Below, one piece after another: positions 7,755 through 12,280 of a stretch of DNA of 14,037 bases. A program made the position numbers and the translations under genes. The stretch lies in the NCBI GenBank assembly GCA_016840095.1, contig JAEOSZ010000015.1:1-14037 (forward strand), written 5' to 3'. This DNA is from Candidatus Heimdallarchaeota archaeon. Lineage in GTDB: Archaea > Asgardarchaeota > Heimdallarchaeia > Heimdallarchaeales > Heimdallarchaeaceae. Numbering within the stretch: position 1 is the first letter of the stretch; each line of letters opens with the position of its first letter. The notes beneath the pieces are model-generated. The model saw only the letters and a program-made list of their open reading frames with translations, ran no database searches and was not told the origin of the DNA.

Positions 7755-7774
7755 TCTCTTTTTTCTCTTTTTTT
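7753..7774 (+). terminator. Oligo-T archaeal intrinsic terminator candidate after the beta-helix gene
   Basis: AATCTCTTTTTTCTCTTTTTTT directly at the stop codon, in a convergent intergenic region. Confidence 0.5.
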
Positions 7775-7830
7775 AATAATCTCTTATTTCTGAATCCGTA
7801 CTCCTTTCTTATCTTTTTCTCCTCTTCTAG
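7773..7830 (-). pseudogene. 3' remnant of a second DUF3795 allele (last ~20 codons, frameshifted)
   Basis: The minus strand reads CTA GAA GAG GAG aa AAA GAT AAG AAA GGA GTA CGG ATT CAG aa ATA AGA GAT TAT TAA = LEEE/KDKKGVRIQ/IRDY*, compared with the intact C-terminus LEEEERKGKEGVRIQDIRDY* (8984-9046). Two small deletions and several synonymous differences. Confidence 0.75.
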
Positions 7831-8918
7831 GAGTGTGTCAAATCCTTCTTTCTCCTTTTAGCTTTTTTCACTAACCTATAAGTGGTTACAGGAATTATTA
7901 CAACACAAGCAAAAAATAATGTCGCCATTCCAATGAAAAACCTTATCATGTCCTCTCCGAAATCACAAGGTCCATACACATAGAAATCCTGCACATACCA
8001 TTTAGATAAAACAATTCTCATAAACACTTTAAGTGCAGCATTTCTTTCAGTTCTACTTGTTCCTTTAGAAAACTCTATTCGTAAGCTAATATCTCCTAGA
8101 AATTTTGCATAATCGTATGGGACTGGTTCAGTCAAATTATAGACTATTGGATACTTTTGATTAATCCATGTTTCATTAAAATCCGTGTCAATGTTATCTT
8201 GATAGGGATTGCTAATCTCTTCAATACCTACAATTATATCTCTTAATGAAAAAATCTCATTATCGATTACATTCACAAAATCCTCATTAGAAGTCCAGTT
8301 CCCATCCTCTACAATCCAATATGAAGCAATAAGTGTCTCATTCCTTTGGAGAGTTACATTATCAATATGGCTTTGTGGAGTTTTATAGGATCGAAGATTG
8401 AATCTTGCAAATTCCCCACAGTAAGTAAAGTCGACAGAATCAACAATACTTACTTCTTCTTGAATTGGTGTAAAACTGAACTCTTCTACATACCACCACA
8501 TCTCAGAATCTGATTCAACAATTGAGTTAATCTCTCTAAGATAATTCTTTTCTCTAAAATGAATATTCTCTAAAAGAAAATCAATTCGTCCTGGTAAAGG
8601 GGAGTAAGAATAATTATAACTGCTGATTTTTTCCAATCCTTGTACTAGATCTGAAAGAATGATCATGTCTGATTCTATAAGACTGATTAATTCTGAATTT
8701 TCCTCCATCTCATGAGTTGTGCTATTTTCGATCAAAATTTGTGCTTGTATATCTTCTTTTGTCTCTCCGTTTAAACTAAGAGAAACTAGTGAAGCAATGA
8801 TCTTTGGTTTACCTGCTGGAACCAATAAAACTGTTGGAACAATAACGCAGATTACTAACAGACTAATTTGTAGAATTGTTATTCGTTTTTTAATAATCCA
8901 ATTAATGTTCCTCTTCAT
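7827..8918 (-). CDS. Hypothetical membrane protein: N- and C-terminal TM helices flanking an extracellular region with an internal duplication
   Basis: TM1 ITILQISLLVICVIVPTVLLVP; TM2 FFIGMATLFFACVVIIPVTTY followed by KKAKRRKK. Multiple sequons (NST, NYS, NVT, NET, NWT, NLT). ATG 8918 has TTTATTAA (minus strand, 8948-8955) about 30 nt upstream; TTG 8927 is an alternative start. Confidence 0.8.
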   Translation of the reverse strand: MKRNINWIIKKRITILQISLLVICVIVPTVLLVPAGKPKIIASLVSLSLNGETKEDIQAQILIENSTTHEMEENSELISLIESDMIILSDLVQGLEKISSYNYSYSPLPGRIDFLLENIHFREKNYLREINSIVESDSEMWWYVEEFSFTPIQEEVSIVDSVDFTYCGEFARFNLRSYKTPQSHIDNVTLQRNETLIASYWIVEDGNWTSNEDFVNVIDNEIFSLRDIIVGIEEISNPYQDNIDTDFNETWINQKYPIVYNLTEPVPYDYAKFLGDISLRIEFSKGTSRTERNAALKVFMRIVLSKWYVQDFYVYGPCDFGEDMIRFFIGMATLFFACVVIIPVTTYRLVKKAKRRKKDLTHS

Positions 8919-8983
8919 AGGTATCAATATATCATTATAATGAACTATTAATAAATGTTTCTCTTAAAATTACTAAATTTTGG

Positions 8984-9436
8984 TTAATAATCTCTAATAT
9001 CCTGTATTCTAACTCCTTCCTTACCTTTCCTTTCTTCCTCTTCAAGAAACTTATCAAAACCTTCCTTCTCTATGAACTTAATGCGTTCAAATAAATAGGA
9101 ATATCTCTTTCTCTGATAGTCTGTATGAGGACAGTCTGCAAATTCTTCACAAATCAGACAATTATCTATTTCATTTTTTTGTATTTTTTCGCATTTCTTT
9201 ACATCACACCAGCCTTCAGTAGCTGCTCTACAACCCGTACAGGTAGAGTTTTCAAACCATTCTAGCCCTTTCAAAAAATTATCATAATCAAAGGAATCCT
9301 CTGCATCTTTTAGCCAAGAATAGTCCTGTTCTACCCATTTTTTAAATTGTGTTGCTAAATTTGTTACCTCAGTTGTAAAAGCTCTGCATTGCCCACAATA
9401 GACGCCACAACGACCTAAATTCTGGCTGAGAGACAT
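8984..9436 (-). CDS. DUF3795-family cysteine-rich (putative Fe-S/Zn-binding) protein
   Basis: Cys pattern CGVYCGQC ... CTGC ... C-DVKKC ... CLICEEFADCP matches the DUF3795 signature. TTTATAA box on the minus strand at 9457-9463. Confidence 0.85.
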   Translation of the reverse strand: MSLSQNLGRCGVYCGQCRAFTTEVTNLATQFKKWVEQDYSWLKDAEDSFDYDNFLKGLEWFENSTCTGCRAATEGWCDVKKCEKIQKNEIDNCLICEEFADCPHTDYQRKRYSYLFERIKFIEKEGFDKFLEEEERKGKEGVRIQDIRDY

Positions 9437-9476
9437 ACTTTAACAATTTTTTTTGATTATAAAAAGAAAATGGTGA
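9381..9476. repeat. 96-bp direct repeat, copy 1 (DUF3795 5' end plus promoter); copy 2 is at 12054-12149
   Basis: Hand alignment without gaps gives 77/96 identities (about 80%), including an exact AAAAAGAAAATGGTGA. Confidence 0.9.
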
Positions 9477-11832: not shown

Positions 11833-11839
11833 CCATTTG

Positions 11840-11932
11840 ATTTTTTTCTTGTTTCTGTTTGCGATAAGTAATTCTAAATTATCTTTTAACATTCTTTTTT
11901 TTGTCAAATGTGTTGTTTCTAACACAAAAAAA
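11840..11932 (+). terminator. Oligo-T tracts and a small hairpin downstream of the binding-protein gene
   Basis: T7 at 11841-11847, T8 at 11895-11902, and TGTGTT-GTTTCT-AACACA at 11909-11926 followed by an A run. Confidence 0.35.
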
Positions 11933-12043
11933 TTGATTTTATTTTATTGCAATGTATATTAATGATCAAATTTAGATTGAATGTAAATCTATTTTTCTTC
12001 TTATAATGGTTTTTATCTTATCTTTACCTTTTAGTAAAATTTT

Positions 12044-12109
12044 TCAATTATAGGCTCTATATTGGCCGCAATAAACTCCACAGCGACCTAGTTTGTGATT
12101 AATAGACAT
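12044..12109 (-). pseudogene. 5' remnant of a second DUF3795 allele (21 codons, then TGA)
   Basis: Translates MSINHKLGRCGVYCGQYRAYN*, compared with the intact MSLSQNLGRCGVYCGQCRAFT. The third Cys is changed to Tyr, and the upstream TATA has changed from TTTATAA to TTTGTAA. Confidence 0.85.
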
Positions 12110-12280
12110 AGTTTAACAATTCTATTTGGTTACAAAAAGAAAATGGTGATTTTGAAATAAAACTAGACTAGAAGTATTCTCATTTATTTCAGTTTTGGGT
12201 TTCACTGTGAATTTTATAACATTCCAATTCCTCTAAACATAATATAACTAGTAAATCATTTATTGGGATTTAGTGAATTT

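What the first reader, a model, noticed from the sequence alone, without database searches (positions are those of the whole stretch)
7773..12149. 4.2-kb block nested inside a split, decayed DUF3795 allele and carrying its own intact DUF3795: possible integrase-free gene-capture hotspot
Seen in the sequence: the order is [3' remnant of DUF3795, 7773-7830] [membrane protein] [intact DUF3795, 8984-9436] [permuted binding protein] [5' remnant plus promoter of DUF3795, 12044-12149]. All three DUF3795 pieces are on the minus strand, and the remnants are in the order expected of one interrupted gene whose middle ~110 codons are gone. Each surface-protein gene is therefore flanked by a diverged direct repeat of one DUF3795 end. 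No integrase, transposase or tRNA is present in the window. Inference: the ancestral layout was beta-helix gene / DUF3795 / methyltransferase. Foreign DNA then entered either as one three-gene block or as two homology-anchored captures (one crossover in DUF3795, one illegitimate join), with DUF3795 acting as the docking site for variable surface genes.
Basis: partly seen in the sequence, partly recalled or inferred. Interest (0 to 1): 0.8.

Follow-up and report, generated by a model that had tools for sequence, protein, structure and literature searches.

The report
Split DUF3795 gene around intact copy
In a Heimdallarchaeota (Asgard archaeon) contig, a small gene next to a methyltransferase was broken by illegitimate recombination that brought in a diverged intact copy of itself plus two surface-protein genes; it is a real but passive recombination scar in a rearrangement-prone region, not a dedicated gene-capture device.

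Summary
Both DUF3795 remnants are real: 12047-12109 plus a decayed promoter, and 7768-7854. Their alignment scores lie 24 and 12 SD above dinucleotide shuffles. They sit where relatives (G013, G010, G024, G015) have one intact DUF3795 divergent from the methyltransferase.

The block is not simply foreign cargo. In a sister species (ZHAN22-2 contigs, same species as G018), TatD, DUF3795 and mem366 form a native same-strand unit. That unit is colinear with window 7855-9544, including the intergenic promoter. Only the SBP gene and its 216-nt spacer have no traceable origin.

The left junction lies in a 14-nt microhomology between the mem366 3' end and DUF3795 codons 121-126. That marks a biological illegitimate join.

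The 5' remnant diverged from the intact copy as a functional allele; six of six changes in LGRCGVYCGQ are synonymous. The whole neighbourhood is reshuffled in every species and carries TatD, MT and DUF3795 remnants with non-recurrent breakpoints.

The best reading is homology-facilitated illegitimate recombination between diverged versions of one locus, probably in two steps. There is no integrase, tRNA, terminal repeat or site specificity. Read support could not be obtained. Interest is moderate to low.

The parts
5343..7754 (+). Beta-helix/NosD-like surface protein (803 aa, N-terminal TM). Left flank; a fast-evolving gene, 32-34% identical to counterparts in relatives.
   Evidence: Pfam PF13229/PF05048; identities; TM
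7768..7854 (-). DUF3795 3' remnant: about codons 123-150, stop at 7773-7775, 4-nt and 1-nt indels. About 74% identical to all orthologs, roughly 9% more diverged than functional alleles are from each other.
7840..7853 (-). Junction J1: 14-nt microhomology (AGAAAGAAGGNTTT) shared by the native mem366 3' end and DUF3795 codons 121-126. Sequence to its 5' side is mem366-type; sequence to its 3' side is DUF3795-type.
   Evidence: alignment of mem366 3' ends of WIN, ZHAN, G018 and G024 and DUF3795 alignment
7827..8927 (-). mem366: surface-anchored protein of no known family, with an N-terminal signal/anchor, a C-terminal TM and a basic tail. The true start is probably ATG at 8918. The last 9 codons and the stop come from the remnant, read out of frame.
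8928..8983 (-). DUF3795-mem366 intergenic region with the mem366 promoter. It is colinear with the same region in the sister species, so there is no junction here.
8984..9436 (-). Intact DUF3795 (150 aa). All Cys motifs are kept and the TATA box is intact. It is 73-83% identical (aa) to orthologs and has the longest terminal branch in its group.
9437..9544 (-). Promoter of the intact copy plus a weak TatD 3'-end remnant (about 9486-9544). Homology to the TatD-DUF3795 junction of G003 ends near 9544 (junction J2).
9577..11832 (+). SBP_bac_5 (Opp/Dpp-type) substrate-binding protein, 751 aa, with a C-terminal TM and basic tail. It belongs to a large paralog family (9 copies in this genome) and has no relative above 55% identity anywhere.
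11833..12048 (.). AT-rich spacer of unknown origin after SBP. It has no homolog in the genome or in any fetched locus. Its right end is junction J3.
12044..12149 (-). DUF3795 5' remnant: codons 1-21 (12047-12109), TGA at 12044-12046, and a decayed promoter (TATA element TTTGTAAC, where intact copies have TTTATATA or TTTATAAT). Remnant-specific changes are L3I, C17Y, F20Y and T21N.
12160..12226 (-). TatD 3'-end remnant upstream of the 5' DUF3795 remnant. It is orthologous to the remnant in G024 (shared indels), and similar remnants occur in G010, G012, G018 and ZHAN.
12263..13195 (+). Class I SAM methyltransferase. It is the conserved divergent partner of DUF3795 in G010, G013, G024 and G015.
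13223..14017 (-). Intact TatD-family hydrolase, convergent with MT as in G015.

Best explanation
The contig comes from a Heimdallarchaeota MAG. Its backbone (F14-F7-g1-AAT-...-DUF3795-MT) once held a single DUF3795 divergent from the methyltransferase. That resident gene was broken by homology-facilitated illegitimate recombination with DNA from a diverged version of the same neighbourhood, most likely from another species of the genus.

The incoming DNA carried the native DUF3795-mem366 unit with its TatD 3' stub, and an SBP gene. DUF3795 homology anchored the incoming DNA. The non-homologous ends were sealed by illegitimate joins, one of which is shown to use a 14-nt microhomology.

The result is one intact DUF3795 between mem366 and SBP. 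The resident gene's 3' end (codons 123-150) and its 5' end with promoter (codons 1-21) were displaced outward. They are now decaying pseudogene fragments.

The 3' remnant is more decayed than the 5' remnant. So two successive one-sided events are somewhat more likely than one 4.2-kb insertion: first DUF 3' end plus mem366, later DUF 5' end plus SBP. The structure is a passive scar in a rearrangement-prone region rich in surface-protein genes. No dedicated recombinase or docking function is implied.

Shown: the remnants, the backbone position, the native status of the mem366-DUF3795 unit, the J1 microhomology, and allele-like divergence. Inferred: the inter-species donor, the order and number of events, and the nature of junctions J2 and J3.
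For: 1. Remnants are significant against shuffles, z=24 and z=12.
2. A single intact DUF3795 lies divergent from MT in G010, G013, G024 and G015. Window 12055-12395 is colinear with G024 over 348 nt at 73.6%. The MAG's own backbone contigs (C12: F14-F7-g1 N-terminus; C50: F0) match the G013/G010 order, and the MAG has no second DUF3795, MT, TatD or mem366 copy.
3. TatD-DUF3795-mem366-AAT-g2 is contiguous in ZHAN22-2 contigs. The DUF stop, intergenic region and mem366 start are colinear with the window.
4. aa identity to the window is similar for block genes (mem366 68, DUF 79) and flank genes (g1 77, g2 79, AAT 78, MT 75, TatD 84).
5. J1 lies in a 14-nt microhomology, too short for a k-mer assembly join.
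6. In the 5' remnant's 63 coding nt, identity is 45/63 to the co-resident intact copy but 53/63 to G013 and 52/63 to G003. All 6 differences in LGRCGVYCGQ are synonymous.
7. No other species holds two diverged copies, and the DUF3795 tree does not split by context.
8. The 3' remnant has about 9% excess divergence plus 2 indels. The 5' remnant has no excess divergence and no indels.
9. Similar scars occur elsewhere at this locus. ZHAN's MT is flanked by 200-nt repeats at 85% identity, and TatD 3' remnants occur in G010, G012, G018 and ZHAN.
10. HFIR is a described mechanism and has been invoked for displaced gene ends in T6SS and Rhs loci (PMC5361080).
Against: - No donor genome with a DUF3795-SBP adjacency exists in any collection.
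- The SBP and its spacer have no traceable origin.
- Junctions J2 and J3 cannot be characterised without a donor sequence.
- The species has no close relative, so the time and direction of transfer are untestable. The DUF3795 tree is a polytomy around the window's copy.
- Anchor identity of about 75-80% is low for homologous recombination.
- HFIR has not been demonstrated in Asgard archaea (my own knowledge).
- The contig comes from a MAG with 7.8% contamination, and its junctions are not confirmed by reads or by other assemblies.
- The difference in remnant age rests on fewer than 100 nt each.
Confidence: 0.58

Rival explanations
1. Old local segmental duplication. The ancestor carried a tandem array of two or three [TatD-DUF3795(-mem366)] units. 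The middle copy survived. Deletions and insertions reaching into the neighbouring copies left a 3' stub on one side and a 5' stub on the other. Any short 5' stub and short 3' stub are automatically non-overlapping and fall in this order.
For: - Three TatD 3' ends lie in the same order and orientation in the window and in ZHAN.
- Scaffold L169 shows the 6.7-kb unit [TatD-DUF3795-mem366-AAT-g2-beta-lactamase] twice in tandem. The copies are 98.7% identical and lie between beta-lactamase paralogs that are 82% identical.
- MT in ZHAN is flanked by a 200-nt duplicate.
Against: - It needs three DUF3795 copies where the insertion model needs two.
- No species among the 24 relatives keeps two diverged copies.
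- The DUF3795 tree does not separate MT-context from TatD/mem366-context alleles. G015 groups with G003 and G021 at 100/99 support.
- The 21-29% divergence with a synonymous bias requires both copies to have stayed functional for about as long as the genus has existed.
- Both stubs sit exactly at the backbone position of the single gene.
- L169 is a scaffold and may mix strains.
Confidence: 0.2
2. Assembly artefact. The contig is a chimera of two co-occurring Heimdallarchaeota populations with different gene orders.
For: The MAG has 7.8% contamination and 165 contigs. The 14-kb contig breaks inside g1 and just past TatD. There is no read support or independent assembly.
Against: - A graph chimera switches at shared k-mers and would give a hybrid gene, not an intact gene nested between two stubs.
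- J1 shares only 14 nt.
- The remnants show decay consistent with real pseudogenes: stop codon, lost Cys, mutated TATA box, indels.
- No alternative path or second copy of DUF3795, MT, TatD or mem366 exists in the MAG.
Confidence: 0.07
3. Dedicated docking site. Sequences in DUF3795 or the TatD 3' end are recognised by a trans-acting recombinase. This would make the locus an integrase-free or trans-integrase cassette platform for surface-protein genes.
For: Neighbours of DUF3795 differ in almost every species. Three genes here and in ZHAN (mem366, SBP, MT) are each flanked by 90-200-nt diverged direct repeats of a neighbour's end. The inserted genes encode surface proteins.
Against: - Breakpoints differ between events: DUF codon 21 against 31 (G008), 123 against 114 (G014); TatD about aa 226-250.
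- The repeats share no identical core longer than about 16 nt, and there are no terminal inverted repeats.
- There is no integrase, transposase or tRNA.
- mem366 is a native neighbour, not cargo.
- G008 and G012 simply deleted DUF3795.
- Nearby gene stubs are rare genome-wide, about 6 loci in 3,040 ORFs, so this is not a genome-wide system.
Confidence: 0.05

Closest known systems
Homology-facilitated illegitimate recombination / insertion-duplication (de Vries & Wackernagel 2002; Prudhomme et al. 2002; Meier & Wackernagel 2003, as cited in PMC5361080)
   Same: One stretch of homology (DUF3795) anchors incoming DNA. Non-homologous neighbour genes come in with it. The other end is sealed at a short microhomology (14 nt at J1). 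Part of the resident sequence is displaced or deleted.
   Different: HFIR was described experimentally in naturally transformable bacteria, not in archaea or Asgard lineages. The anchor here is only about 75-80% identical. Both ends of the anchor gene are displaced. No donor is identified.
Displaced gene ends and orphan genes in T6SS effector-immunity arrays and Rhs/CDI loci (Kirchberger et al. 2017, PMC5361080)
   Same: Successive replacement at a conserved gene leaves truncated ends of the former allele next to the new intact one. HFIR was proposed as the mechanism.
   Different: Those loci carry polymorphic toxin genes with a constant 5' core and variable 3' tips under conflict-driven selection. 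DUF3795 is a small conserved Cys-rich protein, and what varies here is its neighbours. Displacement occurs on both sides.
Integrase-mediated islands that rebuild the target gene (integration into tRNA genes or 3' gene ends; SSV-type integrase splitting)
   Same: An insert is flanked by direct repeats of a gene end, with one intact copy and one stub.
   Different: No integrase, no identical att core and no tRNA are present. The middle 100 codons of the resident gene are missing, and the breakpoints are not site-specific.

Membership tests
HFIR-type recombination scar | Homologous anchor shared by resident and incoming DNA | tested here: met
   Direct repeats 9376-9476 / 12049-12149 (79%) and 8979-9070 / 7768-7854 (about 75%)
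HFIR-type recombination scar | Illegitimate junction at a short microhomology at the non-homologous end | tested here: met
   J1 has 14 nt shared by the mem366 3' end and DUF3795 codons 121-126. J2 and J3 could not be assessed because there is no donor sequence.
HFIR-type recombination scar | Identified donor, or an empty site in a close relative | not testable with these tools
   No relative of this species is closer than about 80%. A sister species has the mem366-DUF3795-TatD unit, but none has DUF3795-SBP.
Integrase-borne genomic island / integrative element | Integrase or recombinase gene in or beside the insert | tested here: not met
   No such Pfam or NCBIfam domain in any of the 10 ORFs
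Integrase-borne genomic island / integrative element | Identical att core repeats at both ends; tRNA or fixed target | tested here: not met
   Only diverged repeats and no long exact core; no tRNA; breakpoints differ between genomes
Transposon / IS / casposon | Terminal inverted repeats, short target-site duplication, transposase | tested here: not met
   No terminal inverted repeats at 7855 or 12048; no transposase or Cas1 domain
Integron cassette array | IntI integrase; attC hairpins bounding small co-oriented cassettes | tested here: inconclusive
   There is no integrase, and the genes are large and in mixed orientation. attC sites were not searched with a dedicated model.
DUF3795 (PF12675), intact gene | Pfam score above the gathering cut-off and conserved Cys motifs | tested here: met
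   37.2 bits against 22.6; Cys motifs conserved against 11 orthologs

The most novel reading that the evidence does not exclude
The TatD-3'/DUF3795 segment of this Heimdallarchaeota genus is a true recombination hotspot. Genes for variable surface proteins (mem366, SBP, beta-helix, wHTH sensor) are repeatedly gained from related species by short-homology-anchored integration of excised or circular DNA. That would be an integrase-independent cassette-exchange route operating in Asgard archaea.
Probability: 0.08. Interest if true: 0.65.

Novelty: new member of a known kind. Interest (0 to 1): 0.33.

Why it matters
If the junctions hold up, this is a clean natural example of one-sided homology plus microhomology joining adding surface-protein genes in an Asgard archaeon. 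How this group gains genes is of interest, and it has no genetic system.

The finding also shows that one neighbourhood of this genus is reshuffled in every species, leaving datable stubs of TatD, MT and DUF3795. Such stubs could be used to reconstruct rearrangement histories.

It does not reveal a new mechanism or a new kind of mobile element, and it rests on one unverified MAG contig.

Tried and rejected
- Independent assemblies: the exact-protein look-up for DUF3795 found nothing. The J1-spanning 33-mer is absent from metagenome contigs and genome contigs.
- Donor search: the SBP has no relative above 55% identity among 5.8 billion proteins or in the 24 other genomes of the genus. None of 19 SBP-homolog loci has DUF3795, TatD or mem366 nearby.
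- Spacer 11833-12048: no match in the genome or in any locus. Its weak similarity to the ZHAN DUF3795-mem366 intergenic region is within shuffle noise, 16 against a mean of 14 and a maximum of 26. Rejected.
- Terminal inverted or long exact direct repeats at the block ends: none.
- Recent in-situ duplication: rejected, because the remnant is closer to other species' alleles than to the intact copy and the changes are biased towards synonymous ones.
- Ancient paralogs sorted by context: not supported by the tree.
- Protein-level search for further remnants in the window's non-coding DNA: only the 5' DUF3795 stub passed E<0.01.
- One script call returned no answer and was repeated.
- In one search the label 'SBP' on other loci is a script artefact marking unclustered singletons. 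It was ignored.
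Full report
**What the window is.** The window is a complete 14,037-bp contig (C82) of a 3.44-Mb MAG with 165 contigs, 33% GC, 89% completeness and 7.8% contamination. 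Named relatives are Candidatus Heimdallarchaeota / Promethearchaeati MAGs.

The genes are as follows:
- g1: C-terminal 369 aa of a roughly 1,390-aa BcrAD_BadFG/DUF2229 protein
- g2: 510 aa, no family
- AAT-family protein
- membrane wHTH protein (DUF7343)
- beta-helix/NosD protein
- mem366(-)
- DUF3795(-)
- SBP_bac_5 protein(+)
- class I methyltransferase MT(+)
- TatD(-)

There is no tRNA, no Rfam family and no integrase or transposase domain.

**Observation check.** tblastn and blastn of the intact DUF3795 against the window recover both remnants and nothing else of note.

The 5' piece reads MSINHKLGRCGVYCGQYRAYN followed by TGA. With about 40 nt of upstream sequence, it is 79% identical over 101 nt to the intact copy. 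It is about 75% identical and has a 4-nt and a 1-nt indel.

Against 500 dinucleotide-preserving shuffles, the local alignment scores are 59 (maximum 23, z=24) and 40 (maximum 32, z=12).

In the whole MAG the only other DUF3795 is a distant paralog on C16.

**Position of the remnants.** In G010, G013, G024 and G015, a single DUF3795 lies divergent from MT. Window 12055-12395 aligns as one piece (348 nt, 73.6%) with G024's DUF3795 5' end, intergenic region and MT 5' end. The 3' remnant aligns with every ortholog's 3' end at 74-78%.

The MAG's other contigs supply F14-F7-g1 N-terminus (C12) and F0 (C50). This is the same backbone as G013 and G010. The MAG has no second DUF3795, MT, TatD or mem366. 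The two stubs therefore sit where one backbone DUF3795 is expected.

**What the block is.** mem366 has an N-terminal anchor, a C-terminal TM helix and a basic tail, and belongs to no known family. Its best relatives are 64-69% identical.

In ENA contigs of sample set ZHAN22-2, the order is TatD, DUF3795, mem366 on one strand, then AAT and g2. These contigs are the same species as G018, because their sequence is identical at the mem366 3' end. All the other window families lie nearby. The DUF3795 stop, the intergenic promoter and the mem366 start are colinear between that species and the window.

Upstream of the intact copy, homology to the TatD-DUF3795 junction of G003 runs to about 9544. Thus 7855-9544 is a fragment of a native TatD-DUF3795-mem366 unit, not foreign cargo.

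aa identities to the ZHAN species are similar for block genes (mem366 68, DUF3795 79) and flank genes (g1 77, g2 79, AAT 78, MT 75, TatD 84).

The SBP belongs to a family with 9 copies in this genome and up to about 20 in relatives. It has no relative above 55% identity in any collection. No homolog sits near DUF3795, TatD or mem366. The 216-nt spacer after it is an orphan.

**Junctions.**
- J1: mem366 orthologs end ...AGGAGAAAGAAGGGTTTAGGTTAA, and DUF3795 codons 121-126 read AAGAAAGAAGGATTTGA. The window switches from mem366-type to DUF3795-type sequence inside the shared AGAAAGAAGGNTTT at 7840-7853. A 14-nt microhomology is typical of illegitimate joining and is too short for a de Bruijn chimera. 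As a result, the last nine mem366 codons and its stop are remnant sequence read out of frame.
- J2 (about 9545) and J3 (about 12046) cannot be read without a donor sequence.
- The block ends have no terminal inverted repeats and no long exact direct repeats.

**Age and origin of the two copies.** In the 63 coding nt, the 5' remnant matches G013 at 53/63 and G003 at 52/63, but the co-resident intact copy at only 45/63.

Across LGRCGVYCGQ all six differences from the intact copy are synonymous. The remnant's N-terminus (INHK) follows the genus consensus, whereas the intact copy (LSQN) is the outlier. Remnant-specific damage is L3I, C17Y, F20Y, T21N, the stop at codon 22 and a mutated TATA box (TTTGTAAC, where intact copies have TTTATATA or TTTATAAT). 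So the two copies diverged as working genes and the truncation came later. A recent in-situ partial duplication is excluded.

No relative holds two diverged copies. An ML tree of 12 alleles does not group them by context: G015 (MT context) joins G003 and G021 (TatD-upstream context) at 100/99 support. This argues against long-lived paralogs.

The 3' remnant is about 9% more diverged from orthologs than functional alleles are (mean 64.8/88 against 72.6/88) and has two indels. The 5' remnant shows no excess divergence (48.2/63 against 48.6/63) and no indel. This is weak evidence that the mem366-side event is older than the SBP-side event.

**The neighbourhood as a whole.** Gene order differs in nearly every species. 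TatD lies upstream of DUF3795 in G003, G021 and ZHAN, and downstream of it in G016 and G020. MT lies between them in G015 and in the window.

Scars across the genus:
- TatD 3'-end stubs lie beside MT in G010, G012, G018, ZHAN and the window.
- ZHAN's MT is flanked by 200-nt direct repeats at 85% identity.
- G008 keeps only DUF3795 codons 1-31, G012 has lost the gene, G024 has a frameshift and G014 keeps a 3' stub. DUF3795 is therefore dispensable, and the breakpoints are not recurrent.

One ZHAN scaffold (L169) carries the 6.7-kb unit twice, with copies 98.7% identical. This suggests segmental duplication, but it is not proof.

Genome-wide, only about 6 loci among 3,040 ORFs show a gene stub within 15 kb of an intact homolog.

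**Mechanism.** The best fit is homology-facilitated illegitimate recombination between diverged versions of one locus. DUF3795 served as the anchor, and the heterologous ends were sealed at microhomology. The most likely course is two one-sided steps, or less likely a single 4.2-kb insertion with loss of codons 22-122.

This mechanism is established in transformable bacteria. It has been proposed for displaced ends in T6SS and Rhs loci (PMC5361080). Published Asgard mobile elements (aloposons, integrated viruses; PMC8813620) are of a different, integrase-dependent kind.

Rival explanations and my confidence in each:

| Explanation | Confidence |
|---|---|
| Old tandem array with differential decay | 0.20 |
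| Assembly chimera | 0.07 |
| Dedicated docking system | 0.05 |

**Verdict.** This is a new example of a known kind of recombination scar in an interesting lineage. It remains unverified by reads. Interest is about 0.33.

Noticed in passing
window 8914-8963; G000 C95:85008-85057 (L174): The mem366 promoter and leader (about 50 nt, GAGAAACATTTATTAAT...GATATATTGATAC) is 88% identical to the region upstream of an unrelated 726-aa VWA-domain gene on contig C95. It could be a shared regulatory module or a copied promoter.
   Followed up: partly
L169 (ENA ZHAN22-2 scaffold_3437) 2854-7952 and 9545-14643: The 6.7-kb unit [beta-lactamase-TatD-DUF3795-mem366-AAT-g2] occurs twice in tandem, with copies 98.7% identical. 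In three other samples it is single and bounded by two beta-lactamase paralogs that are 82% identical. This is either a population-level segmental duplication or a scaffold that mixes strains.
   Followed up: partly
L167 3503-3704 and 4770-4968: In the sister species the methyltransferase is flanked by 200-nt direct repeats (85% identical). Each repeat holds a TatD 3' end plus an MT 3' end. This is the same 'gene between diverged repeats of a neighbour's end' pattern as around SBP and mem366 in the window.
   Followed up: partly
window 12160-12226 and about 9486-9544: There are two TatD 3'-end stubs, one upstream of each DUF3795 5' copy, in addition to the intact TatD at 13223-14017. The first shares indels with the stub in G024.
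   Followed up: yes
L044 (G008:C176) 2969-3061; L042 (G012:C125) 4366-4850; L041 (G024:C63) 1331-1779: DUF3795 is reduced to codons 1-31 with a stop in G008, deleted in G012 and frameshifted in G024. The gene is therefore dispensable in this genus.
   Followed up: partly
window 4193-7754 compared with relatives: The membrane wHTH and beta-helix pair is only 32-38% identical between species, while backbone genes are 75-87% identical. Short matches to the beta-helix C-terminus lie just downstream of MT in G024, G010, G013 and G012.
   Followed up: no
G000 C16:23649-23924 (against the gene at 28241-29434); C158:13027-13119 (against the gene at 10515-11249): Two further 3'-end gene stubs (74% and 71% aa identity) lie 4.3 and 1.8 kb from their intact homologs. 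The C16 case is 2 kb from the genome's other DUF3795 paralog (21162-21515).
   Followed up: no
window 2703-3071: The g2-AAT spacer is 369 nt here but 87 nt in the sister species. No remnant was detected in it at protein level.
   Followed up: partly
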